From NCBI RefSeq assembly GCF_053078305.1, contig NZ_CP166879.1: a stretch of DNA of 64,000 nt, one strand, 5' to 3'. Both the position numbers and the translations under genes were made by a program. The number at the start of each line of letters is the position of its first letter. The stretch's first letter is position 1. The notes under the pieces are model-generated. The model saw nothing but the letters and a program-made list of their open reading frames with translations, did no database searches and was not told where the DNA came from. This document shows positions 6,629-23,320 of this stretch, piece after piece.

Positions 6629-6677
6629 GAAAAAACAACAAAAGGACGTGGAATATTAATCAACAGGAGAAATTTCT

Positions 6678-7397: not shown

Positions 7398-7407
7398 GGT
7401 AAACAGA

Positions 7408-8823
7408 ATGTCTTTGAAAACAAGTGATATCAGGTTTAAAGAGCGTATCCGTATTCAGATTCAGGACCCGATCATGCGAAAAGCTGTGGCTAACGCACAG
7501 GAGCGCATAGGGACTAATCGACAGAAAATGGTTGATGAACTGGGACACTGGGAGGAATGGCGTTCACGAGCTGAACAGATTCGTCGGCATGTTCTGGAAA
7601 ATCTTGATGCTTATTTGTATCAATTGTCCGAAAAGGTTACTGCGAATGGCGGGCATGTATATTTTGCCCGTACCAGAGAGGATGCAACCAGTTACATACT
7701 GAAGGTGGCGAAAGAAAAAAACGCCAGGAAGGTTGTTAAATCCAAATCAATGGTGACTGAGGAAATTGGCATGAATGCCGTTCTTCAGAAAGCCGGGATA
7801 CCCGTGATTGAAACGGACCTTGGGGAATATATTCTTCAGCTAGCACATGAGCCACCATCGCATGTGGTTGTGCCGGCAATACATAAAGATCGCCATCAAA
7901 TCCGCAGAGTTTTACATGAACATCTGGGGTATGACGGGCCTGAAACTCCAGAAGCAATGACATTGTTCATCCGTGAGAAAATCAGACAAGATTTTCTGAG
8001 TGCTGAAGTTGGCGTAACGGGGTGTAACTTTGCCGTTGCAGAAACAGGGTCAGTCTGCCTTGTTACAAACGAAGGCAACGCACGGATGTGCACCACATTA
8101 CCTAAAACACATATTGCTGTTATGGGTATGGAGCGTATTGCTCCGACATTCCAGGAGGTGGATGTTCTGATTACCATGCTTGCAAGGAGTGCTGTCGGGG
8201 CGAGACTGACAGGTTATAACACCTGGCTTACAGGCCCCAGAGAAGAAGGACATGTTGATGGTCCGGAAGAGTTCCATCTCGTTATTGTTGACAATGGGCG
8301 TTCAGAGATTCTCGGCTCAGAATTCAGCGATGTATTGCGATGTATCCGCTGCGGTGCCTGCATTAATACCTGCCCGGCTTATCGTCAGATTGGTGGGCAT
8401 GGTTATGGTTCAATCTACCCGGGGCCAATCGGCGCGGTTATTTCCCCATTGCTTGGTGGATATGAAGACTTTAAGGATTTACCCTATGCCTGCTCATTGT
8501 GCACTGCCTGCAATGGGGTATGTCCTGTAAAAATACCTCTGGCAACGCTAATACAAAAACATCGCCAGGTTATGGCAGAGTCTGAAATCACACCATTAAC
8601 GGAACGCCGTATAACCAGAGCATTCAATTACATAAACAGCCATCCGGCGTTGTGGAAGGTAGGTATGGTTGCTGGGGCCAAAACAGCCCGTCTGTTCATC
8701 AGGAAAGGAAAAACGCCGATTAGTGTTGGGGCGATAAAAGAATGGACTGAAGCCAGAGACCTGCCATCACCTGATGGAGAAAGCTTCCGTAGTTGGTTCA
8801 AGCGACATAAGAAGGAGGGGTAA
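7408..8823 (+). CDS. LutB/YkgF-like 4Fe-4S lactate-utilisation protein, 471 aa
   Basis: Two ferredoxin-type clusters (CIRCGACINTCP, CSLCTACNGVCP); follows the lutA-like gene with a 10-bp gap. Confidence 0.75.
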   Translation: MSLKTSDIRFKERIRIQIQDPIMRKAVANAQERIGTNRQKMVDELGHWEEWRSRAEQIRRHVLENLDAYLYQLSEKVTANGGHVYFARTREDATSYILKVAKEKNARKVVKSKSMVTEEIGMNAVLQKAGIPVIETDLGEYILQLAHEPPSHVVVPAIHKDRHQIRRVLHEHLGYDGPETPEAMTLFIREKIRQDFLSAEVGVTGCNFAVAETGSVCLVTNEGNARMCTTLPKTHIAVMGMERIAPTFQEVDVLITMLARSAVGARLTGYNTWLTGPREEGHVDGPEEFHLVIVDNGRSEILGSEFSDVLRCIRCGACINTCPAYRQIGGHGYGSIYPGPIGAVISPLLGGYEDFKDLPYACSLCTACNGVCPVKIPLATLIQKHRQVMAESEITPLTERRITRAFNYINSHPALWKVGMVAGAKTARLFIRKGKTPISVGAIKEWTEARDLPSPDGESFRSWFKRHKKEG

Positions 8824-8826
8824 TTT

Positions 8827-9525
8827 ATGGAAAACAGAGAGGAATTTCTCGTTGCGATCGCCAGAAAGCTTGGCAGACCAGTAAGACATATTCCCGAAGC
8901 AATGCCGGAGCCTGTAAATACGCTGGCTACGACACGTTTAACAGAGTTGACATCAGACCAACGCTGTGAGGCGTTTATTAAATTTGCCTCGGAAGTGATG
9001 CTTGCCGAGTGTGTTCTGGTGTCGCCTGAGAACGCACCATCAACAGCCTTAGACATCTGTTGGAAGTTCGGTTCCGGGCCAGTCATTATCAGCAACGATC
9101 AACGACTGGTCGATACAGGGATTACGCCATTGCTACAAAAAGAAATGGACGCTGCTCTGTGGGATCCGGAGAAGGGCGATGAAAATATCCATCTTGCTGA
9201 AAAGGCAAAAACTGGTGTCGTTTTCGCTGAGTATGGGCTGACAGAATCAGGAGGCATTGTCTTATTCTCCGCACCAGAACGTGGGCGCTCAGTAAGCCTT
9301 TTGCCTGAAGCATCATTATTTGTTTTACGTAAAAGCACCATTCTCCCCAGAGTGGCGCAGCTTGCGCAAAAACTTCATGATATGGCTCAGGAAGGACAAC
9401 GGATGCCGTCCTGTATAAATCTGATTGGAGGCCCAAGTTCTACTGCAGATATAGAACTGATCAAAGTTGTTGGCGTACATGGTCCTGTACATGCAACCTA
9501 TTTGATCATTGATGATTGCGATTAA
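8827..9525 (+). CDS. LutC/YkgG-like lactate-utilisation protein, 232 aa
   Basis: Size and position completing the three-gene lutABC-like set; start 4 bp after the lutB-like stop. Confidence 0.65.
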   Translation: MENREEFLVAIARKLGRPVRHIPEAMPEPVNTLATTRLTELTSDQRCEAFIKFASEVMLAECVLVSPENAPSTALDICWKFGSGPVIISNDQRLVDTGITPLLQKEMDAALWDPEKGDENIHLAEKAKTGVVFAEYGLTESGGIVLFSAPERGRSVSLLPEASLFVLRKSTILPRVAQLAQKLHDMAQEGQRMPSCINLIGGPSSTADIELIKVVGVHGPVHATYLIIDDCD

Positions 9526-9618
9526 CGATTGCTAATAAAAAAATGGCCTTAAGGTGATATTTCGTCTTGTGAAAAGGCAACAATAGACTAAAGGTTAGGC
9601 ATAATTGTGTTTCTTTAT

Positions 9619-9649
9619 GCCTCCGCAGCAATTTGTGGAGGCTTTTTTG
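9619..9649 (+). terminator. Rho-independent terminator after the lactate module
   Basis: GC-rich hairpin gcctcc-(loop)-ggaggc followed by TTTTTTG. Confidence 0.6.
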
Positions 9650-9730
9650 CTTACTCCAAACAGTTTGGCTTCTTGAAAAAGTCATATCCCAAACCTATTG
9701 ACGCTTATAAAAAAGTAAAGAATGGTGAGT

Positions 9731-9792
9731 AAGCGTAAACTGACCACCGTATGTAGCCATGATGCCAGTATTGGTAACGTAGGTGCACCCCT
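9731..9792. repeat. Solo IS66-family terminal-repeat remnant (copy 1)
   Basis: GTAAGCGTAAACTGACCACCGTATGTAGCCATGATGCCAGTATTGGTAACGTAGGTGCACCC is near-identical to the orfA-side end of the IS66-family element at 21737..21798. Confidence 0.6.
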
Positions 9793-9861
9793 ATCTATTT
9801 TTGTAGAACCGGAGGAAACAGACCAGATAGTTTAAATGAGCTGGTTATACGTAACATAATT

Positions 9862-9893
9862 GTAAGCGTAAACTGACCGCCGTATGTAGCCAT
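9862..9893. repeat. Solo IS66-family terminal-repeat remnant (copy 2, shorter)
   Basis: GTAAGCGTAAACTGACCGCCGTATGTAGCCAT repeated 131 bp downstream of copy 1, same orientation. Confidence 0.55.
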
Positions 9894-9981
9894 CAGACGA
9901 AAATTGGTAACTTAGACGCCCATCTGATATAGACGGACATCTAAGTATGGAATTACATGAACCGCCCCGGAAATCCTGGAG

Positions 9982-10212
9982 ACATCTGGCCACCCTGATT
10001 CCTTCCCGTAACAACTGACGCCAGACTTTACGCACATCGTATACGCACGGTATCTTTTTCTTCAGCCAGTCATCACGCTGCGCACGGGCATTGCGTTTAT
10101 CAGGATGATGTCGCTGTTGCTGACAGTGGTAATACGTTGACGGGGCAATATGCAGTTCACTGCATACCGGTCCGATCCCGTACTGCTCACGCGACTTATC
10201 CAGCAGTGGCAT
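9982..10212 (-). pseudogene. IS629 orfB, 5' 77 codons only (deletion derivative)
   Basis: MPLLDK...GIRVARC matches the IS629 OrfB N-terminus; the reading frame then runs into the inverted-repeat sequence. Confidence 0.7.
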
Positions 10213-10538
10213 TATTTTTTCCAGGGGCGGTCGAACTCCGCCTTCGCAAAATAAGTGGAAGCCTGGCGAAGGATATCGTTACTGCGGCTCAGTTCACGAT
10301 TTTCACGTTCCAGCTCTTTCAGACGCTGACGTTCAGTGGTGGTGAAACCACCATCACCGCCCCCAATATCCTGCTCATGCTGGAGTACCCAGACGTGCAG
10401 AGTCTCCGGTGTACAGCCAATCTTAGGGGCAATAGAACAAATTGCTGTCCATTGTGAGTCATATTCGCCCTGACTTTCCAGAACCATACGAACTGCCCGT
10501 TGACGGACTTCGGGGGAAAAACGTGTATTTTTAGTCAT
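10212..10538 (-). CDS. IS629 OrfA (IS3-family transposase HTH subunit), 108 aa
   Basis: MTKNTRFSPEVRQRAVRMVLESQGEYDSQW... matches recalled IS629/IS1203 OrfA. Confidence 0.8.
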   Translation of the reverse strand: MTKNTRFSPEVRQRAVRMVLESQGEYDSQWTAICSIAPKIGCTPETLHVWVLQHEQDIGGGDGGFTTTERQRLKELERENRELSRSNDILRQASTYFAKAEFDRPWKK

Positions 10539-10752
10539 CCTGTTTACCTCTTTCTCAGGGAGTTTAGTCTCCAGGATTTCCGGGGCGGTTTAACGTTTAT
10601 AACAACTCCGACCATTCAAAATGGCCGGCGGGGTATAAATCCCTATCAATTTAACATTATCTCATTTGACATGAATAACGCCGTTTATCTATTTGTTGCC
10701 CTTTAGCTAGTTCATAGCAACCTAGAAAAATTTATTCGTTGCAATATAAATG

Positions 10753-12300
10753 CTACTTGCGTAGCGATAAAATTGCCCGTGCGGTTTCAGCACGGTTATA
10801 GATCTGCATTTTTTTTATTGCAGCATCCACATCTTCACCGCTTTTCTTATTCAGTTTAATCAGAAACTCAACAGGTAATAGCGAAGCTAAATTTTCAAAT
10901 TTTGATTCAGACCAAGTAATGGTTGCAACAGCCCCTTCAGTTCTCTTAATCATTAGTTTTTTAAGTAATTCTAAACGCTCTGGCTCAACAGTTATATAAC
11001 CAATCGGCAGGGTTAATGCACTATCAGAATTAGGTTGACCGTGGTATTGCACCAAAGCAATCACATCAGGAATTAAGAGGATCTCCAAACGATCAAATTT
11101 AGCCTCTGAAGTAAGGCCAATACCGGTAGGAAAACGACCTAAGTGCCGCTTACGCTCTTGACGTTTTTCACCTTCATCTGCACTTGAGTGTAAAAGCGAA
11201 ATGCGAGCAATCTTATCATCGGCATAATTGCCAAGTATATCGCCTAGAGCGCGAGTAAAACGCGAAAGTTGACTACCATTAGCTCCCCACAGTGGTACTT
11301 TACTGCTATACCACAGCGCTTTTGGAGCTGTTTTACCTATATAATCACGTAATGCATTATGCAACATACTAATGAACAGCTTAGAATTGTGCGGCAAATA
11401 AACAGCCCCTAACATGCCGGTAGTCAATGAAGTACCGTAGCCAGTTTTACGTTGTTCACGAGCCTCTATCCAGCCGGAATAGTTGAACTTATAACCATTA
11501 GCAAATTGTAACAACACTTTATCATTTGCTAGTTTACAGAAATCTTCACAGTCGATACCGAATTCATCTAGTTTATGTTCTCCCAAAAAATCTGCGATAT
11601 GAGCTTCCAGCTCGTTTGAAAGCGGCAGCCGGGTGTTACCTAAATATTCATAGGAACGAGTAAATTTCTGCGGCTCAATGCTCCCAGCAGAAACACCGTA
11701 GCTAACCTCTATCTCTATTGGGAGCTGCACCATCTCATGCGAACTACAGCCCATTATCTTATATAATTTAGTCCGTTGACGCTCATACTCGCTGTTGCGG
11801 CTGAGCAAAAGATGGTGCCGAAACTGGGAACTAAAAGCCTCTGTTACCGCAGCAGCATCTCCCCCGATCTGATGCCGCGGCAATAGCTCTGGCAGTCCAG
11901 AAGTAAAACGACGATTTGGTTGCGGTTTACATATCGAAAGAGTTAGTAGATCGAATGCAACTTCCTCCGTACATTCTTGATATTTAACTAAACTTGGCTT
12001 CCCACCATTATTAGCTGCATGCTTACGTAGGAATGAGCTAGCCTCAATATGCCCATCAGGATTAATGTTGATCAGTCTGTTAGCCAGCAACCCATCAAGC
12101 AATACCTCTCGCTCACGATCAGTTAGACCAAAGTAATTCTGTAACTCGCTGGGATAGAGTTGATCAAAAATCAGCAGCAAGCGACATGCAAACTGTTCAA
12201 TTCCAGGCATCAGTTTTTCAGTGGTCAAAGCGCAGTTGATCTTGTAACTACGCGCAGGTAGTAAAACGGTAATCAGATTACCCAGACGTGGTTCTGACAT
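10753..12300 (-). CDS. Hypothetical 515-aa protein, partner of the NERD-kinase-helicase gene; no motif recognised
   Basis: Long ORF in low-GC DNA; its ATG overlaps the upstream stop (TAATG) indicating translational coupling. No TM segments, P-loop, HKD, HEPN or other signature seen by eye. Confidence 0.7.
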   Translation of the reverse strand: MSEPRLGNLITVLLPARSYKINCALTTEKLMPGIEQFACRLLLIFDQLYPSELQNYFGLTDREREVLLDGLLANRLININPDGHIEASSFLRKHAANNGGKPSLVKYQECTEEVAFDLLTLSICKPQPNRRFTSGLPELLPRHQIGGDAAAVTEAFSSQFRHHLLLSRNSEYERQRTKLYKIMGCSSHEMVQLPIEIEVSYGVSAGSIEPQKFTRSYEYLGNTRLPLSNELEAHIADFLGEHKLDEFGIDCEDFCKLANDKVLLQFANGYKFNYSGWIEAREQRKTGYGTSLTTGMLGAVYLPHNSKLFISMLHNALRDYIGKTAPKALWYSSKVPLWGANGSQLSRFTRALGDILGNYADDKIARISLLHSSADEGEKRQERKRHLGRFPTGIGLTSEAKFDRLEILLIPDVIALVQYHGQPNSDSALTLPIGYITVEPERLELLKKLMIKRTEGAVATITWSESKFENLASLLPVEFLIKLNKKSGEDVDAAIKKMQIYNRAETARAILSLRK

Positions 12301-15300
12301 TAGTTGTTATCTCCAAGCAGACTTTGACCACACAGGATTTGGTAGTTGGGTTCATCTACTGCAACCTGTTTACTAATAAATTCATGAACGTTTCCAAGTG
12401 CTGAATCATTATTGGTCTTTGACCACATACGCCTTGCTCCCAGAATCAATAACCTTTCTTGAGCTCGCGAAATAGCAACGTTTATTCGCGGCGCGTCGCG
12501 CAGGAAACCTTGTAGTTTGTTGGGATTATCGCGAACCAGACTGAGGATAATTATCTTGTTTTCCTGGCCCTGATATGAATCAACGGTATCGATCTTGATC
12601 AAACCACGTAACGATGCAGCCCATTCAGCCCGACTGATAGCATTGTCAATTTCCTCTTTTTGCTGACGATACATTGTGATTATACCAATAGGATATGGCT
12701 GTTCTGTGGTAATAGTTTGCTCAAGCTGTGCAATGCAGCCATCACTCGACAATGACTGCAAAGCCTCTAGCAGTAGCCGGACTTCTCGTTGATTATAGTA
12801 ACGACCATTACCCTTATGTTCTTCTGCACCTGCTTCATTAGGGCTCGAACTATCGATCCAAGTAACAGTTTTGTTCCAAGGGATTGGTAACTTGGAATAC
12901 CAATCTGGCGAGACTTTCCTCGATGAATGCAGTTTACCGATATCTTGAGCGTAAAAGCACTCCGATACTAACTCGCCAATTGGTTCTACCATTCGATATT
13001 GAGTATCGAGTGTTACGCCGCCTGTTGCTTTAAAAGCACGTTCAAAATCAGACTCATAAAAGATCCCTTTCCCGAGTTCTAATTTCTTAGAGGCTAACTT
13101 AAGATGCTGTTGATGATAGAATGGTGGCAATTGTTTATGATCCCCTACCAACAGCACCCGCTTGCCTGATTGCAGCGCTACCATCAATTCAGCAGCTTGT
13201 GCTCGGCCAGCCTCATCAACTATTACCCAATCAAAGCTGGACTCAGCTAGTTCTAGTCGACGATTCCCAACACCAACAAGAGTTCCACAAACCAATCGCT
13301 TACTTTTGAACATAAATCGATCAAATCCAGCCTCGCCGCCGCGTAATACATCCATCCACTCTTGGCTCATTTCCAATAGCTGCATAAAACGTTCAAGGTT
13401 CTCTGGATTGTTATAATTGTATTGTATGGCAACTTGCTCAGCCAACTGTCTTATCAAGGTTTCATCATAGACAAGAGTTTTCAGCAAGCTGTCATCGAAT
13501 ATTGAGTTAATAATTTCTTGTGTTCGCAGTTTAAGCTGATTGCTTTGTTCTAATAATTCAGCCAGTCGCTCTTGATGACTAATACTACTACTCTTTATTT
13601 GTTCTACTTTATCCAGCTCACGGCTATATTGGCCATATGTCACCATCAAGGGATTCAGCGTACGATGTAACTGACATAACTGTTGGACTAATAATGGGGC
13701 CATCCCTAGGCGCTTTCCTAGGGAGCTAACTCGCAGATCATATTCACGGTGAAATTTATGCTGAATCTGTCGCTGAAGAGCTTTAGTTGCAACACTTAGC
13801 ATACCCTCATCAATCATAAGTTCATTACCAATACGTACTGTATCCAGTTCCATTCCTTTCGTATGGCAGAGCTCTCGAGCCTTGATGGCTACATTATCAA
13901 CAGAGGCATGGGATTGCCCGACCAAAAGAATGTTATTCACACCGCAATGTTGATACAGATAGTGAATAAATTTTGAAATAAATGTTGTTTTACCTGTTCC
14001 AGGTGGTCCCTGCAGAACTCCAACTGGTCCAAACTCGACCAACTGTTGAAATGCCATTAGCTGCTGTTCATTAAAACGTTGTCCAGGCTGATCATAAAGT
14101 GCGCGTAATGTCTCCGCGGATGGCCGCGGTTGCATTTGCTGCATGCAGGGTTTCTGGTGGTAATCAAAATACTGTGGCAGATGCTGGATCTCTGCTTTGT
14201 TTTCAATTACCCGTTGAAGGGCTCTTTGACGCAACTCTCTTGATGATTTGTCACGGATCGATTCCAATTGTAGCTGGCTGCCGCTACTAATTCGCTTACG
14301 AGCAGCATCAAAATCAAAGCGAATAGCCAATAGACTCGGCGTAGTCTCACTTAGCTGCAATTCCCCTAATTGCACTGATTCACGCTTATCTTTAATATAA
14401 ACAATGATCTTATCATCAAGTTCAAAGCTGAGGTCAGCACCGGATTCCGTAGTATATGGGTAGAGTAAGCAACCACTCGGTGATTCCTGAAAGTCAGTAG
14501 AGTCGATGTTGACTATATCTCGTAGGTCTACTTCTGTATCAGATAATGCCTGCCATAACTCAATTGGGCTTGACTCACTACTATCGAAGTCATCTTCATC
14601 CATCTCTTGATTAGGATTAGCTCGCTCAATGATGGCATCAATTACTGGCTCGAGGTTAAACAGTAGTTCAATAAAAGTATTACGCTGATTAAGTGAGCCA
14701 CGTTGTAATGAAAGTTGAGTATTAATTTTAGCCTGGGAATATTTACCAGCCTTTATACTTTCTTCGATCGATAATCCTTTTTCATACACTATTCTATTAA
14801 TAGTGCGATTATCAGGATCTAAGTCTATCAATAGCCGCTCTCCTAGGCCAGTGATGTAACAACGCAATTCATGCGCAAAGCGTGGGTTAGATGACCAGTT
14901 ACATTGAAAATAATAGATCCCATCATTTTGTTCTAGAAGCTTCACTTCTTGCGGCCAATCATCTGTGCCCCAGCAAACAGGAATTACCTTATCCTGTGAC
15001 TCAGACGCCACAACTTGATTAATCTCAGCTTGTTCCGGTGCTCGAATTGACTGCAGCAAAGGATCGAGCGCGATAGGTATACCGTCAACGGTTTGTTTTG
15101 CGCGTTCTAGCTCAGCCTGCACCAGTACTGGCATATCTTCACTAAATAGCTCCTCCACCATACGATATACTGCAAAGCAATCTCGCCCAAAAGCATCAGT
15201 ACTTTCGGGATTCTCTGGCTGGTAGCGATTATCTGCAGTTAATTCATCACTGAATTCAAGCAATCCAATCAGAGTAATTACTGTCTGCTCCCCGACTTGT

Positions 15301-17258
15301 ACCAGCAGTTTCTCTGGGCAAAGATCTCCATGAGGTAACTGCTTTTCATGAAAAGCATGAATGGTGTTGATCAACTTTTCCGCAATTGTAAAACGTTGGG
15401 ATTGTACTAACACGTTCTCAGCAATAAACTGTGACCACGGTAGGCCATCCACATACTCGCTCACTACATACAAGCCGCCTTGTCCTAATAGTCCATAGGA
15501 CTGCACCTTAGGAGTTGGCAGATTTATATGCGTAAGCTTATCGATCCGTTGCTTAAAAGCGTGGATACGGCGGTTAACACCAGGTTGTTGAGGGGTCAAA
15601 ATAACACCATCCCACAATTTTACCTGCAGAGCTTTCCCACCTTGTTCACAGTGATAACTGATGCTGCCAGTCGTAGCAATAGCAGCAAGAGCAGAGTAAA
15701 CCATAGACAACTGTTCAGGAAGTGGAGGAAACTCAATTAACACACCAACGCTGTTCATCCCTTCGCGAAAGAATTTGTTTTGCTTTAATTCTTGATAAAT
15801 CTGGTTAGCTTCATCAAATTCTTGGCTATGTTCCTTAGTAGCTGCATTAAACTCATTGAGCATTATGTCCGCACGTGGAAAGCGTTTACTTGGCTCAAGG
15901 TTAAGAGCTTGCTCAAACCAGCTATTTAGAATACCGCTAAAAGGATCAGTTAATGGAGCTCTCCATTCAGGCATCTGTCCAGGAGTCAGTAATGATTCAC
16001 CTGCAAAACAAATACGATAAGCAATTACAGCCAACATGAATACATCTAGGCGATAGGGCTCAACTGCTTCTTCAAAAGCATCTTCGGGCAAAATATATGG
16101 AGCACTTTGCAATGTCGGACGCAATGACTCTAGGCTATTATGTCCCTCCAGTGAGGCTGCGCCAAAGCCAGTAACGACAATGCTCTTCTGATCCCCTGCG
16201 TACCATAGATTGTGCGGGTCAATATCACAATGACTGATACCCAAGCTATGTAATTCCGAGAATGGAGCTAATAATGCACGAACGCGATCAATACGCTCAG
16301 ATTTACTCCATCCGTCAGCTTCGCTATCTAGAATCTCATCTAATCGGCTAAAACTACGGCGTAACTCATACAGCTCACGGGCATCATCAGTTATATCCTC
16401 CTCGGATAGTTCCCTTACAGCACGCAACATATAATCCTGCATAGTTGCGCTGCCATGACGAACTAGGCGACCGACTCGAGTCTCACGCAGAGCTATCTCA
16501 GCCCACAATGTTTGCATTGCGTTTGCTACACCCAAGGCATCAAAGTTCCACTGCCGTAGCAGACCTCTGTGTTGACTATTGTCTTTGTGGGTAGCCCTGA
16601 ATTCGTTGTAGACCATGTGAGGGTGACTAAAGAATGGCTTATCGTTCGCAAGATAACCGCTTTCTTTTAGTGGCAAAGGCCTGACTTTTGGTCCTTCAAA
16701 GAAGGACTTAATTATAGGTAATGCCTCATCAGAATTTGGTCGAGGCTTTCCCCCTTCAAAAAGATGAAAAAAGTTAGTGTGTTGCACCAGCTTTTCGTAA
16801 TTTTTTGGGTTACCTATAGTCAAGAATTCATCACGGGTATGAACATAGCGCCTCTCACTTAATGGCAAGTTTTCAGGACCAGCTGTGCCACACAGCACTA
16901 CATGAGCCTCAACATGCAAAAAGTAACCCAGCTTACGAGATAACTCTTCCTGCAACAAATCTTTTAGTCGCAGTGCATGCTCACGCTTGATCTGATAGGG
17001 ACTTTTGCCTCGTGACTTACCATTTTGCAGCCACTTCCCCCCTTCAAATGTGATGTTACCATTCCACTCTTTAAGCTCGACTAATAGCAGACGGTCAGCA
17101 GTAATAATTAGCATATCGATTTCCATCGACCCTTGGCTATCAGTAACAACTAAGCCAGCATAGCCAAACCAACTATCTGGTAACTGCTTAACCATCATAT
17201 CAACTGTTTTGGTTTCGCTGCGGTGCAGGCCAGCACCACCTACTATCTGATACTTCAC
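12300..17258 (-). CDS. 1652-aa multidomain protein: NERD (PD-(D/E)xK-like) domain, two protein-kinase-like domains, Upf1/DNA2-like SF1 helicase
   Basis: GTG start with GGAG about 9 nt upstream; NERD-like EIDMLIIT...LLVELKEW (aa 45-64); kinase-like catalytic loops HCDIDPHNLW (aa 343-352, then TGFGAA) and HGDLCPEKLLV (aa 643-653); helicase Walker A GPPGTGKTT (aa 1085-1093), Walker B VIVDEAGRA (aa 1345-1353), VGDHKQLPP, DSYQGQE, NVAISRAQERL. Confidence 0.75.
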   Translation of the reverse strand: MKYQIVGGAGLHRSETKTVDMMVKQLPDSWFGYAGLVVTDSQGSMEIDMLIITADRLLLVELKEWNGNITFEGGKWLQNGKSRGKSPYQIKREHALRLKDLLQEELSRKLGYFLHVEAHVVLCGTAGPENLPLSERRYVHTRDEFLTIGNPKNYEKLVQHTNFFHLFEGGKPRPNSDEALPIIKSFFEGPKVRPLPLKESGYLANDKPFFSHPHMVYNEFRATHKDNSQHRGLLRQWNFDALGVANAMQTLWAEIALRETRVGRLVRHGSATMQDYMLRAVRELSEEDITDDARELYELRRSFSRLDEILDSEADGWSKSERIDRVRALLAPFSELHSLGISHCDIDPHNLWYAGDQKSIVVTGFGAASLEGHNSLESLRPTLQSAPYILPEDAFEEAVEPYRLDVFMLAVIAYRICFAGESLLTPGQMPEWRAPLTDPFSGILNSWFEQALNLEPSKRFPRADIMLNEFNAATKEHSQEFDEANQIYQELKQNKFFREGMNSVGVLIEFPPLPEQLSMVYSALAAIATTGSISYHCEQGGKALQVKLWDGVILTPQQPGVNRRIHAFKQRIDKLTHINLPTPKVQSYGLLGQGGLYVVSEYVDGLPWSQFIAENVLVQSQRFTIAEKLINTIHAFHEKQLPHGDLCPEKLLVQVGEQTVITLIGLLEFSDELTADNRYQPENPESTDAFGRDCFAVYRMVEELFSEDMPVLVQAELERAKQTVDGIPIALDPLLQSIRAPEQAEINQVVASESQDKVIPVCWGTDDWPQEVKLLEQNDGIYYFQCNWSSNPRFAHELRCYITGLGERLLIDLDPDNRTINRIVYEKGLSIEESIKAGKYSQAKINTQLSLQRGSLNQRNTFIELLFNLEPVIDAIIERANPNQEMDEDDFDSSESSPIELWQALSDTEVDLRDIVNIDSTDFQESPSGCLLYPYTTESGADLSFELDDKIIVYIKDKRESVQLGELQLSETTPSLLAIRFDFDAARKRISSGSQLQLESIRDKSSRELRQRALQRVIENKAEIQHLPQYFDYHQKPCMQQMQPRPSAETLRALYDQPGQRFNEQQLMAFQQLVEFGPVGVLQGPPGTGKTTFISKFIHYLYQHCGVNNILLVGQSHASVDNVAIKARELCHTKGMELDTVRIGNELMIDEGMLSVATKALQRQIQHKFHREYDLRVSSLGKRLGMAPLLVQQLCQLHRTLNPLMVTYGQYSRELDKVEQIKSSSISHQERLAELLEQSNQLKLRTQEIINSIFDDSLLKTLVYDETLIRQLAEQVAIQYNYNNPENLERFMQLLEMSQEWMDVLRGGEAGFDRFMFKSKRLVCGTLVGVGNRRLELAESSFDWVIVDEAGRAQAAELMVALQSGKRVLLVGDHKQLPPFYHQQHLKLASKKLELGKGIFYESDFERAFKATGGVTLDTQYRMVEPIGELVSECFYAQDIGKLHSSRKVSPDWYSKLPIPWNKTVTWIDSSSPNEAGAEEHKGNGRYYNQREVRLLLEALQSLSSDGCIAQLEQTITTEQPYPIGIITMYRQQKEEIDNAISRAEWAASLRGLIKIDTVDSYQGQENKIIILSLVRDNPNKLQGFLRDAPRINVAISRAQERLLILGARRMWSKTNNDSALGNVHEFISKQVAVDEPNYQILCGQSLLGDNN

Positions 17259-17468
17259 GTTTTCTCCTGCACCACTAAATTTTTGTTGGTGGTAGTCCAG
17301 TAAAAATGGATGTAGTTATCTAAGACAGCGCATAGATTGTGCCTGCCTAACCCTAAAAAGTGTAATTATGAAAAGTAACGCTAGAAATTCTATACCGTTC
17401 GCAAAGAGAACACTTTTCAAAGATATATCATCATCTTGAACATGTCACTATAATGGTGAATCCATAAG

Positions 17469-17725: not shown

Positions 17726-18353
17726 CTATTCGTTATAGTGTTCGAACGCCTCCGCAAGGTTTTTTACTGCCGTTAACACGTCCGGTTTAGGTATGATACT
17801 GATGTAATCGCTCTTCATCGTTTTCACGAACCGTTCTCTCATTCCATTACTCTGAGGGCTACTGACTGCCGTCGTGCAGAGCTCCAGATTCAACTCTCTG
17901 GCGAACTGCCGTGTTTCATGAGTTGTATAAGCCGAACCGTTATCGGTCAGCCACTGGATGGGCCATCCCGGTCTATCGCCAAAGCGTTTTTCTATCGCTC
18001 CTGACATGACATCCTGCACCGTTGCTTTGCCATAACCTCCCGTGCTTGCGGCCCAGTCTATGGATTCAAGATCGCAACAGTCCAGTGCGAACGTGACACG
18101 CAGTTTTTCGTCATCATCACAACCGAACTCAAAGCCATCGGCACACCAGCGCGGGTCGCTTTCCTTCACCGATATTCGGGCCTTTATGTTCCCTCTGCGG
18201 TCGTGAAGGTTTGTCATGTAATAACAACAGGTTATTCTCGCTCATTATTCGATAAACGCGATTTGCATTCACGAACTGCAGTCCTTCGTTAAGACTGCCG
18301 TCTGAGAATAGCCCAGACACGACGATAGCCATCGAATCGCTGAACAGCGTCAT
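17726..18353 (-). pseudogene. IS2-like (IS3 family) transposase OrfB remnant, truncated and frameshifted
   Basis: 163-aa ORF contains [10 protein letters not shown]...WLTDNGS...AEAFEHYNE resembling IS2 InsD; the upstream 74-aa ORF in another frame carries the adjacent NANRVYRIM segment. Confidence 0.6.
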
Positions 18354-18459: not shown

Positions 18460-18789
18460 ATGTCAAAACCCCGATGGACCATTGAACAGAAAAGGCAGCA
18501 CGTTGCTGCCTGGCGCGCCAGTGGTCTTACACGTCAGCAATACTGTGAACTCAACGATATTCCCTTCACATCACTTCGCGAATGGCCGCAGGATGTCGCA
18601 AAAGCTGAACGCCGGGCAAATGAACCGACCGTTCTTCCCGTTCATATTGCGCCACCACTGCATGCTGATGTACCACAGCCCGTCACGAATGAGCCAGTCA
18701 CGCTCTTCCTTCCCGGCGGAGTACGGATGTGCTGTCAGCCGTCACAACTTACCGATGTCTTCAGGGCGCTCAAATATGCTCAGTCCTGA
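18460..18789 (+). CDS. IS66-family element B, OrfA-like (HTH), 109 aa
   Basis: Small HTH-like ORF immediately upstream of an IS66 TnpB-like ORF in the typical overlapping arrangement. Confidence 0.5.
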   Translation: MSKPRWTIEQKRQHVAAWRASGLTRQQYCELNDIPFTSLREWPQDVAKAERRANEPTVLPVHIAPPLHADVPQPVTNEPVTLFLPGGVRMCCQPSQLTDVFRALKYAQS

Positions 18790-19168
18790 TAATGTCTTCA
18801 TCGCGATTAAACCTGTTGACATGCGCCGGGGCATCGACACACTGACGCAGTATATACAGGATGAACTCCGGTCGACATGGCATGAGGGAGCCGCCTTCGT
18901 CTTTGTTAACAAAGTCCGTTCGCGTATCAAAGTTCTCCGGTGGGATAAACACGGGGTGTGGTTGTGTACCCGCCGTCTGCACAAAGGCAGCTTCCGCTGG
19001 CCACGTGCAAATGATGCTGCCTGGCACCTCACTCCCGACGAGTTTAACTGGCTGATTGCCGGTGTTGACTGGCAGCAGGTTAAGGGACATGACCTGACGA
19101 AATGGGGCTGGCAGAATGAACCTGAACTGCGCCCTGAAAACACGCAAAATACACTGCTAACTCAGTGA
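18776..19168 (+). CDS. IS66-family element B, OrfB (TnpB-like), about 130 aa
   Basis: MLSPDNVFIAIKPVDMRRGIDTL... typical IS66 OrfB; ATG overlaps the orfA stop (ATGCTCAGTCCTGA). The 228-aa ORF in the track is an upstream extension of this frame. Confidence 0.65.
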   Translation: MLSPDNVFIAIKPVDMRRGIDTLTQYIQDELRSTWHEGAAFVFVNKVRSRIKVLRWDKHGVWLCTRRLHKGSFRWPRANDAAWHLTPDEFNWLIAGVDWQQVKGHDLTKWGWQNEPELRPENTQNTLLTQ

Positions 19169-19295
19169 AAAATAATGAATATCCGTATCCGGAGTGGTAT
19201 ACTCCCCTGTATGGATATCTCCGCTCTCAACACCACGAATGACATCGAAAAACTGCGTGCTATGGGTAAGCGTCAACGGAGCACCGTATTGACGC

Positions 19296-20909
19296 TTATT
19301 TATTGGTGAGTACTACGTTCCATGGCAGGAGTTCATCAACTCGGTTGGAAGGCCATTCTGGCAGTACGCTCAGGATATGGCGCAGATACGCTTCCGGATC
19401 GATACCGTTCAGACGGCAGGTGCCGATCAGCCCGTACAACAGTGCTCCACGCTCGCCGCCGTGATCGCTGCCAAAGAACATAAAGTTTTTCTTTCCGAGA
19501 CAGACTGCACGAAGCGCTCTTTCCGCAGCATTATTATCCGCCTCCGCCAGACCGTCATCACTGTAATAACAGAGGGCATCCCACTGATTCAGTACATAGC
19601 TGAACGCTTCGCCCAGTCTGGATTTTTTCGACAGCGTACCATTCTTCTCCACCATCCATTCATGCAGTGACGTCAGTAACACTTTGCTTCGCTGCTGCCT
19701 GACGGCAAGACGCTCTGACTCCGGTAATCCCCGTATTTCATCCTCGATGGCGTACAGTTCACTGATTCGCTTCAGGGCTTCTTCTGCCGTCGCACTTTTG
19801 CTGCTGATGTATACATCGTGGATTTTTCGCCGGGCATGGGCCCAGCACGCAACTTCTGTCAGTGCACCACCTTCACGTTCTGCACTGAACAGCCGATCGT
19901 AACCGCTGAACGCATCCGCCTGCAGGATACCCCGGAAGGGACGAAGGTGTTGTACCGGATGTTTTCCCTGCCTGTCTGGTGAGTAGGCGAACCAGACCGC
20001 CGGTGGCTCTGATGAGCCCGCATTCCGGTCATCCCGGACATACGTCCAGATGCGTCCTGTTTTTGCCTTTTTTCTGCCCGCTGCCAGCACTTTTACTGGT
20101 GTGTCGTCAGTGTGAACCTTGCGGGTGTTCATCACGTAACGGTACAGGGTATCATTCAGCAGAGTCATTAACTGACAACATGCGTCAACCCAGTTGGAGA
20201 GTAATGCCCGGCTCAGTTCGATGCCCTGGCGGGCAAAGATTTCACTCTGACGATACAGTGGCAGGTGTTCGCAGTATTTTCCCGTTAACACGCGGGCAAG
20301 TAATCCGGAGCCCGCGATGCCGCGCTCTATCGGGCGGGACGGCGCTGGCGCTTCAACTATACAGTCACATTTTGTACAGGCTTTTTTTACCCGAACAGTG
20401 CGGATCACTTTCAGGGCGCTACTCACCAGTTCCAGCTGCTCAGCACTGACTTCCCCCAGATAATCCAGCTCACTGCCACACTCCGGGCAACAACTTTCTT
20501 CAGGCTCCAGACGGTGTATTTCACGGGGAAGATGTGCCGGTAACGGACGACGATGACGTGACTGTCGCAACTGGCGGGGAACCTGCGGGTCATCCTCACG
20601 CCCACTGTAACGATCGCTTTCCTGTTCGCGTTGTTTCAGTTGGGCCTCAGCCTGTTCAACCTCACGCTGCAGTTTTTCAGAACGGGTACCGAACAACATC
20701 CGGCGCAGTTTTTCTATCTGGGCCCTCAGATGTTCTATTTCCCGCTCCTCCTCTTCGATCTTTTCCTCGGCACGTGCCAGTGCAGAGCGCAGGAAGGCCT
20801 CCGTCTCTTCAACCAGACTCAGTTGCTGATCTTTCTGACGGAGGGCTTCAGCCTGCTCAGAGAGCAGCCTTTCCAGCTCAGTGATACGAATGAGGTATTT
20901 CCGACTCAT
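19296..20909 (-). CDS. IS66-family transposase OrfC, 537 aa (element A)
   Basis: Coiled-coil N-terminus, CxxC zinc-finger region, DDE-type core typical of IS66 TnpC. Confidence 0.8.
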   Translation of the reverse strand: MSRKYLIRITELERLLSEQAEALRQKDQQLSLVEETEAFLRSALARAEEKIEEEEREIEHLRAQIEKLRRMLFGTRSEKLQREVEQAEAQLKQREQESDRYSGREDDPQVPRQLRQSRHRRPLPAHLPREIHRLEPEESCCPECGSELDYLGEVSAEQLELVSSALKVIRTVRVKKACTKCDCIVEAPAPSRPIERGIAGSGLLARVLTGKYCEHLPLYRQSEIFARQGIELSRALLSNWVDACCQLMTLLNDTLYRYVMNTRKVHTDDTPVKVLAAGRKKAKTGRIWTYVRDDRNAGSSEPPAVWFAYSPDRQGKHPVQHLRPFRGILQADAFSGYDRLFSAEREGGALTEVACWAHARRKIHDVYISSKSATAEEALKRISELYAIEDEIRGLPESERLAVRQQRSKVLLTSLHEWMVEKNGTLSKKSRLGEAFSYVLNQWDALCYYSDDGLAEADNNAAERALRAVCLGKKNFMFFGSDHGGERGALLYGLIGTCRLNGIDPEAYLRHILSVLPEWPSNRVDELLPWNVVLTNK

Positions 20910-20939
20910 GACCGTTTTTATAATCCGGCCATGACATTT

Positions 20940-21290
20940 TTACAACATTGTCAGTGCATTAAGGCGGGATGTTTTGGGCTGACGCCAGTCCAGTTTATCG
21001 AGGAGCATTGCCAGCTGCGAGCGGGTAATGGATACCTTACCGTCACGCACCGCAGGCCAGATAAACTGGCCTTCCTCCAGACGTTTGGTGAACAGGCACA
21101 GACCATCAGCATCAGCCCACAGAATTTTAATCGTGTCACCCCGTCGGCCGCGAAAGATAAACAGGTGACCGGAGAAGGGGTTCTCATCCAGCACATGTTG
21201 TACCTGTTCTCCCAGACCGTTGAAGGATTTACGCATATCAGTAACGCCGGCAACCAGCCAGATTCGAGTGCCTGATGGGAGCGAGATCAT
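20940..21290 (-). CDS. IS66 OrfB (TnpB), 116 aa (element A)
   Basis: MISLPSGTRIWLVAGVTDMRKSFNGL... characteristic IS66 OrfB. Confidence 0.8.
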   Translation of the reverse strand: MISLPSGTRIWLVAGVTDMRKSFNGLGEQVQHVLDENPFSGHLFIFRGRRGDTIKILWADADGLCLFTKRLEEGQFIWPAVRDGKVSITRSQLAMLLDKLDWRQPKTSRLNALTML

Positions 21291-21712
21291 CGTCCCCTCC
21301 CGGTCAGTTCACGGATCAACACCGTGAGCAGCTCTGGTGAAGGATTTTCCAGCGTCATGTTACCGTGGCGGAACTCAACTTTACAGGAACTGGCACTGAC
21401 TGTGCTTTGTGAAGGAGTGGATAAAAGCGGAGTAAGAGCCGCCACAGGCTCTTTCTGCTCATCAGGCGTTATCTCAACAGGTAATAATTCAACGCCAGCG
21501 CCAGAAGAGGTTGTTACCGGAAGACGCCGCGATATACGCCCTTCGTTCTGCCAGAGCCTGAGCCATTTGAACAGGAGGTTATCATTGATATCGTGTTCCC
21601 GGGCAATACGGGCAACAGAGGCTCCTGGTTGTGAAGCCAGTTTAACCATTTGAAGTTTAAACTCATTTGAAAATGATCTGCGGGGTTCTGAGGATAATAT
21701 TTTCTGTTCCAT
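21287..21712 (-). CDS. IS66 OrfA, 141 aa (element A)
   Basis: HTH-containing OrfA (NEFKLQMVKL...); overlaps orfB by 4 bp. Confidence 0.75.
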   Translation of the reverse strand: MEQKILSSEPRRSFSNEFKLQMVKLASQPGASVARIAREHDINDNLLFKWLRLWQNEGRISRRLPVTTSSGAGVELLPVEITPDEQKEPVAALTPLLSTPSQSTVSASSCKVEFRHGNMTLENPSPELLTVLIRELTGRGR

Positions 21713-21802
21713 AACAGGTGTCCACTAGTTGAAAAGGTGGGCACCTACGTTACCAATACTGGCTTAATGGCTACATACGGCGGTCAGTTTACGCTTACTG
21801 CT

Positions 21803-23320
21803 ATGGCACTTACCATGGTACAAAAAGTCATGTCGGAGAATGCCGAAAAAGAGCGGGAATTACTGGAGAAAAGCCGGCGCATCCAGCTTCTGGAAGAAAT
21901 GCTGAAACTGGTTCGTCAACAGCGCTTCGGTAAAAAATGTGAAACGCTGGCTGGTATGCAACGCTCCCTGTTCGAAGAGGATGTTGATGTCGATATCGCC
22001 GCGCTTACCGCACATCTGGATAAACTGCTCCCGCAATCCCCTGAAGAAGACGAAAAAGCGTCCCGTTCACGCCCGATACGCAAACCCTTACCGGCTCATC
22101 TTCCACGGGTGGAAAAAATTATCCAGCCGGACACTGACCATTGCCCTGAATGTGACGAGCCGCTGCACTATATCCGTGATGCGGTGAGTGAAAAGCTGGA
22201 GTATATTCCCGTTCACTTCGTGGTGAACCGTTATGTCCGTCCGCAATACAGTTGTCCCTGTTGCCAGAAGGTGTTCAGCGGTGAAATGCCGGCACATATC
22301 CTCCCGAAAAGTGCCGTTGAGCCATCAGTCATCGCACAGGTGATCATCAATAAATACGGTGACCACCTGCCTCTGTATCGCCAGCAGCACATTTTCTCCC
22401 GAATGGGGGTGGAGCTCCCCGTCAGTACAATGGCGGATAGGGTCGGTGTTGCTGGCGCTGCACTGGCCCCGCTGGCAAAATTGTTACGCCACGAGCTTCT
22501 GACACGGGATGTTATTCATGCCGATGAAACGTCCCTGAGGCTCCCTGATACCCGGAAAGGCGGTAAATCCTGCTCCGGCTGGCTGTGGGCTTACGTCAGC
22601 GGAGAAAGAAGCAGTCCGCCGGTCGTCTGTTTTGACTCGCAGACCGGACGGGCCCTCAGATATCCTGAGGCCTGGCTGCAGGGCTGGTGTGGCGGTACGC
22701 TGGTGAGTGACGGATACAGCGTGTACAAATCTCTGGCGGATAATGACCCCGGTATTACATCTGCCTGTTGCTGGAGCCACGCAAGGCGCGGTTTCGCAAA
22801 TCTGTATAAGGCCAGCAGGGAGCCCCGTGCAGCCATGGCGCTGAGAAAAATCGCGGGTCTTTATCGCATTGAGAAGTTCATCCGTGAACGTCCTGTGGAA
22901 AAAATACGGCAATGGCGACAACGGTATTCCCGGCCGATAGTGAATGACCTGTTTGCCTGGCCTGAAGAGCAGGAGCCGTGCTGTCCGCCCGACGGACCAC
23001 TAAACAAAGCGATTAATTATATCCTGAACCGGCGCGATGAACTGAGCTGCTTCCTGAGTGACGGAGCCGTGCCCCTGGACAACAATATCTGCGAGCGTGC
23101 TATCCGCCCGGTCGTTATGGGACGAAAGGCCTGGTTGTTCGCCGGTTCACTGATGGCCGGAAACCGCGCGGCACAGATAATGAGCCTTCTGGAAACGGCA
23201 AAACGTAATGGTCTGGAGCCACATGCCTGGCTGACAGACGTCCTGGCGCGTCTGCCGGAATGGCCAGAGGAGCGACTGGCAGAGTTGCTGCCTCTTGAGG
23301 GATTTACCTTCTCCGGGTGA
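21803..23320 (+). CDS. IS66-family transposase OrfC (element B), about 505 aa; start codon lies inside the duplicated target of element A
   Basis: IS66 TnpC-like sequence; the track's longer ORF (from 21737) reads through the element A inverted repeat, so the first ATG after the repeat (21803) is preferred. Confidence 0.65.
   Translation: MALTMVQKVMSENAEKERELLEKSRRIQLLEEMLKLVRQQRFGKKCETLAGMQRSLFEEDVDVDIAALTAHLDKLLPQSPEEDEKASRSRPIRKPLPAHLPRVEKIIQPDTDHCPECDEPLHYIRDAVSEKLEYIPVHFVVNRYVRPQYSCPCCQKVFSGEMPAHILPKSAVEPSVIAQVIINKYGDHLPLYRQQHIFSRMGVELPVSTMADRVGVAGAALAPLAKLLRHELLTRDVIHADETSLRLPDTRKGGKSCSGWLWAYVSGERSSPPVVCFDSQTGRALRYPEAWLQGWCGGTLVSDGYSVYKSLADNDPGITSACCWSHARRGFANLYKASREPRAAMALRKIAGLYRIEKFIRERPVEKIRQWRQRYSRPIVNDLFAWPEEQEPCCPPDGPLNKAINYILNRRDELSCFLSDGAVPLDNNICERAIRPVVMGRKAWLFAGSLMAGNRAAQIMSLLETAKRNGLEPHAWLTDVLARLPEWPEERLAELLPLEGFTFSG

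What the first reader, a model, noticed from the sequence alone, without database searches (positions are those of the whole stretch)
16869..17258. NERD-type nuclease-like N-terminus fused to the helicase
The first about 130 residues contain a PD-(D/E)xK-like arrangement (EIDMLIIT ... LLVELKEW) typical of NERD domains, implying a nuclease effector physically coupled to the helicase motor. If active, uncontrolled expression would be toxic, which is consistent with a regulated immune effector.
Basis: inference. Interest (0 to 1): 0.5.

Follow-up and report, generated by a model that had tools for sequence, protein, structure and literature searches.

The report
NERD nuclease domain of Mokosh MkoA
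The flagged stretch really does encode a restriction-enzyme-like (NERD) nuclease domain, but it is the N-terminus of MkoA, the large subunit of the already described Mokosh type I anti-phage system of E. coli, so it is a correct call on a known system whose nuclease activity nobody has yet tested.

Summary
Observation confirmed. Residues 1-130 of the 1652-aa ORF at 12300-17258 (-) match Pfam NERD (E 4e-14, above the curated cut-off). They fold with high confidence (pLDDT 95) into a PD-(D/E)xK core that matches almost only restriction-endonuclease-like nucleases. E15, D48, E/D61 and K63 are conserved in all 76 diverged homologues, and NERD is the best or near-best conserved part of the protein.

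The protein is MkoA (PADLOC E=0, full length): NERD, two kinase-like domains, then a Upf1-like SF1 helicase. It is translationally coupled to MkoB, so this is Mokosh type I. The gene sits in 71 of 5426 complete E. coli genomes. A homologous NERD-type pair from E. coli SEC470 was shown experimentally to defend, and a 2023 review already lists NERD in Mokosh type I. The domain call is therefore already known.

Two points were added here:
- In 15 loci, MkoA with NERD always pairs with an MkoB that has no detectable PLD domain. This window's MkoB models as a winged helix plus a PLD-like fold without the HxK lysine. MkoA without NERD pairs with a PLD-bearing MkoB. NERD is thus the likely effector nuclease of this subtype.
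- This clade's second kinase domain has lost its metal-binding Asn and Asp.

Nuclease activity, substrate and toxicity remain untested.

The parts
16869..17258 (-). NERD (PD-(D/E)xK) nuclease core, MkoA residues 1-130. Predicted catalytic residues: E15 (17214-17216), D48 (17115-17117), E61 (17076-17078), K63 (17070-17072).
16644..16868 (-). C-terminal helical extension of the NERD module and linker, residues 131-205.
   Evidence: It is modelled as part of the same compact, confident unit (block pLDDT 86-98 up to about residue 200). It is less conserved than the core.
17262..17268 (-). Shine-Dalgarno-like AGGAGAA, 3 nt upstream of the GTG start at 17256-17258.
   Evidence: Read directly from the sequence. 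Homologues in Pectobacterium and Photobacterium begin with the same MKYQIVGG.
15819..16643 (-). Kinase-like domain 1, residues about 206-480. It is atypical: R235 replaces the beta-3 Lys, H343-x-D345 is kept, and there is no DFG Asp.
   Evidence: Pfam Pkinase matches residues 317-418. PADLOC PglW matches 12-419 and NCBIfam MAD6 matches 10-486.
15099..15761 (-). Kinase-like domain 2, residues about 500-720. The family consensus is K547, HGD645, N650 and D665. This clade has N650K (15309-15311), D665G (15264-15266) and D668E.
   Evidence: Pfam Kdo and PK_Tyr_Ser-Thr hits, and PADLOC PD-T4-6 and Stk2 hits, fall at residues 563-675.
14199..15098 (-). Unassigned middle region, residues 721-1020.
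   Evidence: No Pfam hit. It is the least conserved segment.
12300..14198 (-). Upf1/DNA2-like SF1 helicase, residues about 1021-1652, with intact Walker A (G1084-PPGTGKT-1091) and motif II (D1348-E1349). The stop codon is at 12300-12302.
   Evidence: Pfam AAA_11 2.1e-46 and AAA_12 5.2e-45. PDB sequence hits are NAM7/Upf1, Sen1 and DNA2. Motif residues are at least 93% conserved (mostly invariant) in 72 sequences.
10753..12300 (-). mkoB, 515 aa. Its start ATG overlaps the mkoA stop (TAATG). It has an N-terminal MarR-like winged helix and a C-terminal PLD-like fold whose motif is Q418-Y-H420-x-Q422-P...D426-S...G434..T437, with no HxK lysine.

Best explanation
[not shown]
For: Domain identity:
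- Pfam NERD matches at E=4.3e-14, above the gathering score.
- The AF2 model has pLDDT 94.8. The canonical PD-(D/E)xK order (helix, three strands, helix, strand) places E15 on helix 1, D48 on strand 2 and E61-x-K63 on strand 3.

Selection on the site:
- E15, D48 and K63 are 100% conserved and position 61 is E or D in 100% of 76 homologues clustered at 50% identity or less.
- That equals the conservation of the helicase Walker A motif.
- The NERD core is the most conserved MkoA segment in 7 of 8 pairwise comparisons, for example 94% against 75-82% for the other segments versus Photobacterium.

System identity:
- PADLOC MkoA matches at E=0 over the full length, and MkoB at 1.1e-61.
- The pair is homologous to the experimentally verified SEC470 pair: MkoA E=4e-44 and MkoB E=5e-15.

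NERD in place of PLD:
- Ten loci with NERD-bearing MkoA have an MkoB of 476-516 aa with no Pfam PLD domain (the SEC470 MkoB could only be scanned over 399 of its 478 aa). These are this window, SEC470 and L006-L013.
- Five loci with NERD-less MkoA of about 1050-1215 aa have an MkoB of 579-656 aa with PLDc_2, or annotated HTH-PLD by Millman et al. in one case (B. nealsonii). These are ETEC H10407, B. nealsonii and L014-L016.
- All 120 listed homologues of the ETEC MkoB carry PF13091. None of the 41 homologues of this MkoB carries any Pfam domain.
- The MkoB His of the PLD-like motif is itself lost in some partners. The NERD triad is never lost.

DNA as target: T-even phages need DNA glucosylation to escape a Mokosh type I system (10.1101/2025.11.20.689424).
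Against: No nuclease assay or NERD point mutant exists for any MkoA. The 2023 review lists the function of NERD in Mokosh type I as 'N/A'. Millman et al. mutated only the helicase ATP site and the PLD site.

MkoB of this subtype keeps a strongly conserved His-centred motif on a PLD-like fold. Within the close family, H420, Q418, P423, S427, G434 and T437 are invariant in 27 sequences. A non-canonical catalytic role for MkoB therefore cannot be excluded.

It is not known whether the CFE331 'Mokosh_Type_I_A' system of the glucosylation result is the NERD-bearing subtype.

The complementarity rests on 15 loci, not a census.
Confidence: 0.55

Rival explanations
1. The NERD domain is an active nuclease, but its substrate is RNA. 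It would cut phage transcripts or RNA in RNA/DNA intermediates that the Upf1-like helicase threads to it, in analogy to the helicase-plus-nuclease logic of MOV10L1 with Zucchini.
Against: Most structural neighbours are DNA endonucleases: Upx, NucS, FokI, Hjc and type II restriction enzymes. The same helicase family includes DNA2, which acts on DNA. Escape from a Mokosh type I system required glucosylation of phage DNA. The NERD domain of PglW is discussed as a DNA-targeting REase (PMC12839542).
Confidence: 0.2
2. The NERD domain does not carry out the kill. It would be a nucleic-acid-binding sensor or an autoinhibitory or licensing module, or a 'backup' suicidal nuclease. The primary effector would lie elsewhere: the His-centred PLD-like site of MkoB, a kinase activity, or helicase-driven displacement.
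For: MkoB keeps a conserved Q-Y-H-x-Q-P...D-S...G..T block on a PLD-like fold. For PglW, the NERD-REase has been proposed as a backup, abortive effector rather than the principal one (PMC12839542). MkoA has two kinase-like domains that could signal.
Against: All four acidic or basic active-site residues are invariant across the whole long-MkoA family, and NERD is the best or near-best conserved segment. That is not expected of a purely binding module. The MkoB His is replaced in some partners, N in L007 and absent in L010. The PLD lysine is absent throughout the close MkoB family (0 of 27). In this clade the second kinase has lost the metal-binding N650 and D665, so kinase signalling cannot be the effector here.
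Confidence: 0.2
3. The motif is a chance D...ExK arrangement in a non-nuclease N-terminus.
For: D-x(n)-E-x-K strings are short and common.
Against: The Pfam match has E=4.3e-14 over 106 of 111 profile positions. The model is a confident REase-like fold. An exhaustive search found 328 relatives, and most full-length ones have the same 1570-1700 aa architecture.
Confidence: 0.01

Closest known systems
Mokosh type I of E. coli SEC470 (Millman et al. 2022, system SG199, verified anti-phage)
   Same: It has the same two-gene layout and the same MkoA length (1652 aa). Its MkoA has NERD at the N-terminus (Pfam 9.2e-8), then kinase-like domains and a Upf1-like helicase. Its MkoB is annotated only 'HTH'. 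The pair is homologous to this window's pair, with MkoA E=4e-44 and MkoB E=5e-15.
   Different: Identity is only 28% (MkoA N-terminal 400 aa) and 23% (MkoB). SEC470 MkoA has an insertion after the first NERD helix. The authors labelled it 'Kinase-Helicase' and did not mention or mutate the NERD domain.
Mokosh type I of E. coli ETEC H10407 and Bacillus nealsonii (NERD-less subtype)
   Same: It has a kinase plus a Upf1-like helicase in MkoA and a winged-helix protein as MkoB. It carries the same system name, and PADLOC MkoA model PDLC03920 matches the helicase half here at 1.4e-120.
   Different: MkoA is about 1050-1215 aa and starts directly with the kinase, with no NERD. MkoB is about 600 aa with a PLDc_2 HKD domain. 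A profile of this window's MkoB shows no detectable similarity to the first 399 aa of the ETEC MkoB (hhalign probability 0.07%).
PglW of BREX type 2 / Pgl, MAD6 of MADS, and a subset of DndF
   Same: They share the same N-terminal tripartite module of NERD-REase, pseudokinase and kinase. PADLOC PglW matches residues 12-419 at 1.1e-22, NCBIfam MAD6 matches 10-486 at 1.9e-38 and BREX_PglW matches 14-417. The module is described in PMC4365076 and PMC12839542.
   Different: The C-terminal half differs. PglW has winged helices plus an inactive STAND domain, and DndF has a P-loop kinase. Here it is an SF1 helicase. Scores are far below those families' curated cut-offs (79 against 990 bits for PglW, 132 against 460 for MAD6), so this protein is not a member of either. 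In this clade the 'active' kinase has lost N650 and D665.
Nhi / Nhi-like nuclease-helicase immunity proteins
   Same: They are single polypeptides that combine a NERD-type nuclease with an SF1 helicase in anti-phage defence. The review lists PF08378 in 'Nhi-like' alongside Mokosh type I. From my own knowledge (Bari et al. 2022, not read here), both activities of staphylococcal Nhi are required and it degrades phage DNA.
   Different: Nhi has no kinase-like domains and no MkoB-like partner. It is also much shorter, with nuclease and helicase roughly adjacent rather than about 900 residues apart; that point is from my own knowledge, not tested here. No direct sequence comparison was made here.
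Upx (PDB 9wuf) and other nuclease-NTPase defence proteins
   Different: Identity is 15%. The NTPase and overall architecture differ, and no homology beyond the REase fold was shown.

Membership tests
NERD domain (Pfam PF08378; PD-(D/E)xK clan) | Sequence match to the family profile above the curated gathering score | tested here: met
   53.4 bits against 22.1, E=4.3e-14, residues 14-122 on profile positions 5-110 of 111.
NERD domain (Pfam PF08378; PD-(D/E)xK clan) | Restriction-endonuclease-like alpha-beta-beta-beta-alpha-beta core fold | tested here: met
   [not shown]
NERD domain (Pfam PF08378; PD-(D/E)xK clan) | Catalytic D ... (D/E)-x-K signature (plus a helix-1 Glu), present and conserved | tested here: met
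   E15, D48 and K63 are invariant and position 61 is E (60) or D (16) in 76 sequences. The same holds in 8 further loci.
NERD domain (Pfam PF08378; PD-(D/E)xK clan) | Metal-dependent nuclease activity | not testable with these tools
   No biochemical data exist for any MkoA NERD domain. The review lists its function as N/A.
Mokosh type I | MkoA: full-length match to a curated MkoA model, with a COG1112/Upf1-like SF1 helicase that has intact ATP-binding motifs | tested here: met
   PADLOC PDLC03921 E=0, 1305 bits, residues 2-1642 on profile 2-1598 of 1607. AAA_11 and AAA_12 match. Walker A and motif II are conserved.
Mokosh type I | Adjacent mkoB gene in the same operon | tested here: met
   PADLOC MkoB PDLC03923 at 1.1e-61. 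The genes overlap at TAATG.
Mokosh type I | Serine/threonine kinase domain in MkoA | tested here: inconclusive
   Two kinase-like domains are detected. Domain 1 lacks the beta-3 Lys and the DFG Asp family-wide. Domain 2 in this clade has N650K and D665G. The fold is present, but catalytic competence is doubtful.
Mokosh type I | PLD-family nuclease with an H-x-K-x4-D motif in MkoB (as the family was first defined) | tested here: not met
   No Pfam or NCBIfam hit at E up to 10. The fold is PLD-like, but the motif is H420-x-Q422 with no Lys. The verified SEC470 system shares this state: its MkoB is annotated 'HTH'. This is therefore a recognised subtype, not an exclusion from the system.
Mokosh type I | Protection against phage | not testable with these tools
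   Protection is verified for the SEC470 homologue at 23-28% identity, not for this allele.
PglW (BREX type 2) / MAD6 (MADS) | Full-length equivalog match above NCBIfam's curated cut-off, in a BREX or MADS gene context | tested here: not met
   PglW scores 79.4 bits against 990, and MAD6 132.4 against 460. Only the N-terminal NERD-kinase module aligns. No pglX, pglZ or MADS genes are nearby.

The most novel reading that the evidence does not exclude
In the NERD-bearing subtype of Mokosh type I, the nuclease function has moved from MkoB to MkoA. The NERD domain would be the sole catalytic effector. MkoB would survive as a winged-helix plus inactivated PLD-like sensor or regulator. In the E. coli / Pectobacterium / Photobacterium clade, the second kinase is also dead, so the system would run as a helicase-gated restriction-like nuclease without phosphorylation. 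That would give two mechanistically different effector solutions under one system name, and a clean genetic handle (D48, E61, K63 against MkoB H420) on the still unknown Mokosh mechanism.
Probability: 0.4. Interest if true: 0.45.

Novelty: already known. Interest (0 to 1): 0.3.

Why it matters
Mokosh is one of the commoner recently discovered anti-phage systems. It has been linked by homology to the animal piRNA helicase-nuclease pair MOV10L1 and PLD6. The type I mechanism is unknown, and the type I complex could not be purified in a recent survey. That story rests on the PLD nuclease. A large subtype, including an experimentally verified E. coli system and the allele in 71 complete E. coli genomes, has no detectable HKD PLD domain (the two modelled or aligned in detail lack the HxK lysine) and instead carries an invariant PD-(D/E)xK site on the helicase subunit. 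This means the subtype probably kills differently. It also points to exactly which residues to mutate. The finding itself, however, is a correct domain annotation in a known system, not a discovery.

Tried and rejected
- A megablast of the operon against PLSDB plasmids found nothing. The gene is chromosomal in E. coli.
- The word-indexed homologue search with the N-terminal 243 aa returned only 9 hits, mostly fragments. The exhaustive HMMER search was needed to see the family.
- Profile searches of the NERD alignment (A2) and the MkoB alignment (A1) against PDB sequences gave no hits even at E=10. Relationships to solved structures are visible only at fold level.
- hhalign of the MkoB profile against the first 399 aa of the ETEC H10407 HTH-PLD MkoB found no similarity. 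I therefore do not claim that the two MkoB types are homologous in sequence, only that both end in a PLD-like fold.
- I considered filing the protein under PglW or MAD6 and rejected it. Only the N-terminal module aligns, and scores are far below the cut-offs.
- I considered that the second kinase regulates the nuclease by phosphorylation. That is weakened for this clade by N650K and D665G.
- Promoter and terminator scans around the operon were not above shuffled expectation and are not used.
- I could not determine which DefenseFinder subtype (Mokosh_Type_I_A to E) this locus is. I therefore cannot say whether the CFE331 glucosylation result applies to it.
Full report
**1. What is at the coordinates**

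The finding lies at the 5' end of a 1652-codon ORF on the minus strand, 12300..17258. The ORF starts at a GTG three bases downstream of AGGAGAA. RefSeq annotates the identical CDS in E. coli as WP_000877066.1, 'AAA domain-containing protein'. Residues 1-130 correspond to 16869-17258. D48, E61 and K63 are numbered correctly; I checked the codons at 17115-17117, 17076-17078 and 17070-17072 directly.

**2. Is it more than a chance motif**

Yes, on four lines of evidence.
- Pfam NERD (PF08378) matches residues 14-122 over nearly the whole profile. E=4.3e-14 and 53.4 bits, against a gathering score of 22.1.
- An exhaustive HMMER search of 1.84 billion cluster representatives with residues 1-189 found 328 relatives. 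Most full-length ones are 1570-1700 aa, with the match at their extreme N-terminus.
- In an alignment of the query with 75 such proteins, all clustered at 50% identity or less, G10, E15, D48, K63 and W76 are invariant. Position 61 is E in 60 and D in 16. In the full-length alignment these residues are as conserved as the helicase Walker A motif.
- An AlphaFold2 model of residues 1-205, built on 51 sequences, has pLDDT 94.8 and pTM 0.90. Its order of elements is helix 13-25, strands 31-40, 43-52 and 57-63, a small beta-meander 69-85, helix 87-110 and strand 116-122. This is the classical PD-(D/E)xK core (established knowledge of the fold). E15 sits on the first helix, D48 on the second strand and E61-x-K63 on the third.

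**3. What the protein and the locus are**

PADLOC's MkoA model PDLC03921 matches the whole protein (E=0, 1305 bits, residues 2-1642). The ORF immediately downstream, 10753..12300 (-), matches MkoB model PDLC03923 at 1.1e-61. The two genes overlap by one base (TAATG). This is a Mokosh type I operon.

MkoA has these parts:
- NERD, residues 1 to about 205.
- A kinase-like domain at about 206-480 (Pfam Pkinase 317-418).
- A second kinase-like domain at about 500-720.
- An unassigned, poorly conserved middle region at 721-1020 (no Pfam hit).
- A Upf1/NAM7/Sen1/DNA2-like SF1 helicase at 1021-1640 (AAA_11 2e-46 and AAA_12 5e-45; PDB sequence hits).

The N-terminal NERD-plus-kinase module also aligns to PglW of BREX type 2 (residues 12-419) and to MAD6 of MADS (residues 10-486, 1.9e-38). 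Both scores are far below those families' cut-offs. A 'NERD-REase, pseudokinase, kinase' tripartite module is already described for PglW and some DndF proteins (PMC4365076; PMC12839542).

The window is E. coli. The gene is found at 95% identity or more in 71 of 5426 complete genomes, always chromosomal. It sits among IS3 and IS66 remnants and an integrase fragment. Near-identical pairs occur in Salmonella Kentucky, Pectobacterium aquaticum and Photobacterium profundum.

**4. What is already published**

Millman et al. defined Mokosh as a COG1112 RNA helicase plus a PLD nuclease, with type I adding an STK domain. They mutated the helicase ATP site and the PLD site. Their supplementary table lists three type I systems:
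- ETEC H10407: MkoA 1215 aa 'Kinase-Helicase', MkoB 602 aa 'HTH-PLD'.
- B. nealsonii: MkoA 1049 aa, MkoB 'HTH-PLD'.
- E. coli SEC470, verified: MkoA 1652 aa 'Kinase-Helicase', MkoB 478 aa 'HTH'.

The SEC470 MkoA N-terminus contains the NERD motif (…GEFDLVIVTH…IIVELKDW…) and matches Pfam NERD. It is homologous to this window's MkoA (28% identity, E=4e-44), and its MkoB to this MkoB (23%, E=5e-15).

[quoted passage not shown] The presence of NERD in Mokosh type I is therefore known, and its function is untested. A 2025 survey could not purify Mokosh type I. A 2025 preprint reports that T-even phages need DNA glucosylation and the Alt ADP-ribosyltransferase to escape a 'Mokosh_Type_I_A' system from strain CFE331. 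I could not establish whether that subtype is this one.

This window's MkoB has no Pfam or NCBIfam hit even at E=10. None of its 41 homologues carries a Pfam domain. Its AlphaFold2 model (pLDDT 83) has two parts:
- A C-terminal domain that Foldseek matches to PLD-fold proteins: NucT 3.6e-4, vaccinia F13, FAM83, phosphatidylserine synthase, Nuc 1e-2 and Zucchini 4e-2. It also matches TrmB and TrmBL2.

Where a PLD enzyme has H-x-K-x4-D…G-[ST]-x-N (motif as quoted), the close MkoB family has Q418-[YF]-H420-x-Q422-P423-x2-D426-S427…G434-x2-T437, with no lysine. Among partners of more distant long MkoAs, the His itself is replaced: N in L007 and absent in L010.

By contrast, all 120 listed homologues of the ETEC-type MkoB carry PLDc_2. 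The MkoA next to three diverse examples is 1153-1201 aa with no NERD. ETEC and B. nealsonii MkoA also lack NERD.

Altogether:
- 10 loci with NERD-bearing MkoA have an MkoB with no detectable PLD domain. These are this window, SEC470 and L006-L013. The SEC470 MkoB could only be scanned over 399 of its 478 aa.
- 5 loci with NERD-less MkoA have an MkoB with PLDc_2, or annotated HTH-PLD by Millman et al. for B. nealsonii.
- There are no mixed cases.

The NERD core is also the most conserved MkoA segment in 7 of 8 pairwise comparisons. Against Photobacterium it is 94% identical, compared with 75-82% for the other segments. Against L006 it is 58%, compared with 26-41%. This is a small sample, not a census. 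It still supports the reading that NERD supplies the nuclease in this subtype.

**6. Second addition: the second kinase looks dead in this clade**

Across 72 long MkoAs, kinase-like domain 2 has K547 (62 of 72), H643-G-D645, N650 (64 of 72) and D665 (65 of 72). The E. coli window, Pectobacterium and Photobacterium alleles have N650K, D665G and D668E. A different E. coli allele (L013) and all five metagenomic ones keep N and D.

Domain 1 lacks the beta-3 Lys (invariant R235) and any DFG Asp family-wide. This agrees with the published 'pseudokinase' label for the first kinase of the module. Regulation by phosphotransfer is therefore doubtful for this allele. The kinase-like domains may be structural.

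**7. Mechanism**

- Shown: domain identities, the conserved active-site residues, operon structure, system identity and the NERD/PLD complementarity.
- Inferred: NERD is a metal-dependent nuclease and the effector of this subtype. The SF1 helicase engages phage nucleic acid and feeds or licenses the cis nuclease. MkoB (winged helix plus degenerate PLD-like fold) and the kinase-like domains sense or restrain.
- DNA is the more likely substrate, given the structural neighbours and the glucosylation result. RNA is a live alternative, because the helicase is of the Upf1 type and the best structural neighbours include Schlafens.
- A non-catalytic or merely 'backup' role for NERD, with MkoB's His site as effector, cannot be excluded. 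It fits the conservation pattern less well.
- Toxicity on deregulation is plausible by analogy with PglW but untested.

**8. Verdict**

The feature is the known NERD domain of a known defence protein (Mokosh type I MkoA) that standard defence-system HMMs identify over its full length. Novelty is 'already known' and interest is modest. The useful residue is a sharpened, directly testable hypothesis about which nuclease acts in the NERD-bearing Mokosh subtype.

Noticed in passing
window 10753-12300 (-): MkoB of this subtype has no Pfam or NCBIfam domain. It models as a MarR-like winged helix plus a PLD-like fold whose HKD motif is degenerate: Q418-Y-H420-x-Q422-P..D426-S..G434..T437, with no lysine. 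The His is also lost in some distant partners.
   Followed up: partly
window 15264-15311 (-), MkoA residues 650-668: The second kinase-like domain has N650K, D665G and D668E in the E. coli, Pectobacterium and Photobacterium clade, whereas about 90% of the family keeps N and D. The 'active' kinase of the NERD-pseudokinase-kinase module is probably dead in this allele.
   Followed up: partly
[not shown]
   Followed up: no
window 9832-10538, 17726-18217, 18460-23320: The operon is boxed in by insertion-sequence debris. There are IS3-family fragments downstream (HTH_Tnp_1), an rve integrase-core fragment upstream, and two IS66-family copies (TnpB plus DDE_Tnp_IS66 at 19296-20909 and 21737-23320). 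In one E. coli genome (NZ_OZ546963.1) mkoA itself is interrupted by ISVsa5/IS3 and annotated as separate 'nuclease-related', 'protein kinase' and 'AAA' fragments.
   Followed up: partly
window 24166-35571 (-): A contact-dependent inhibition locus is present. It has a 3037-aa CdiA-like protein (ESPR, TPS, haemagglutinin repeats and a PT-VENN pre-toxin domain) and a ShlB/FhaC-type transporter at 33832-35571.
   Followed up: partly
window 46122-59953 (+): The region looks like a CP4-44-like island remnant. It has a YeeP-like GTPase (47212-48123), an Ag43/AIDA-type autotransporter (48420-51617), an 840-aa ORF with no Pfam hit (51732-54254), DUF932 (55197-56015) and DUF4942 (59105-59953).
   Followed up: no
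window 5072-9525 (+): A lactate permease and a lutABC-like lactate utilisation operon (CCG, LUD and Fer4 domains) lie beside the island. A TonB-dependent receptor is at 693-2783. These are ordinary core or accessory metabolism genes that flank the island on this side.
   Followed up: no
L012 (Photobacterium profundum CR354531.1) 9059-13551: In Photobacterium the near-identical Mokosh operon sits next to TerB-domain, BrxC/BrxD-like ATPase and DEAD-helicase genes. That is a defence-island context absent from the E. coli window.
   Followed up: no
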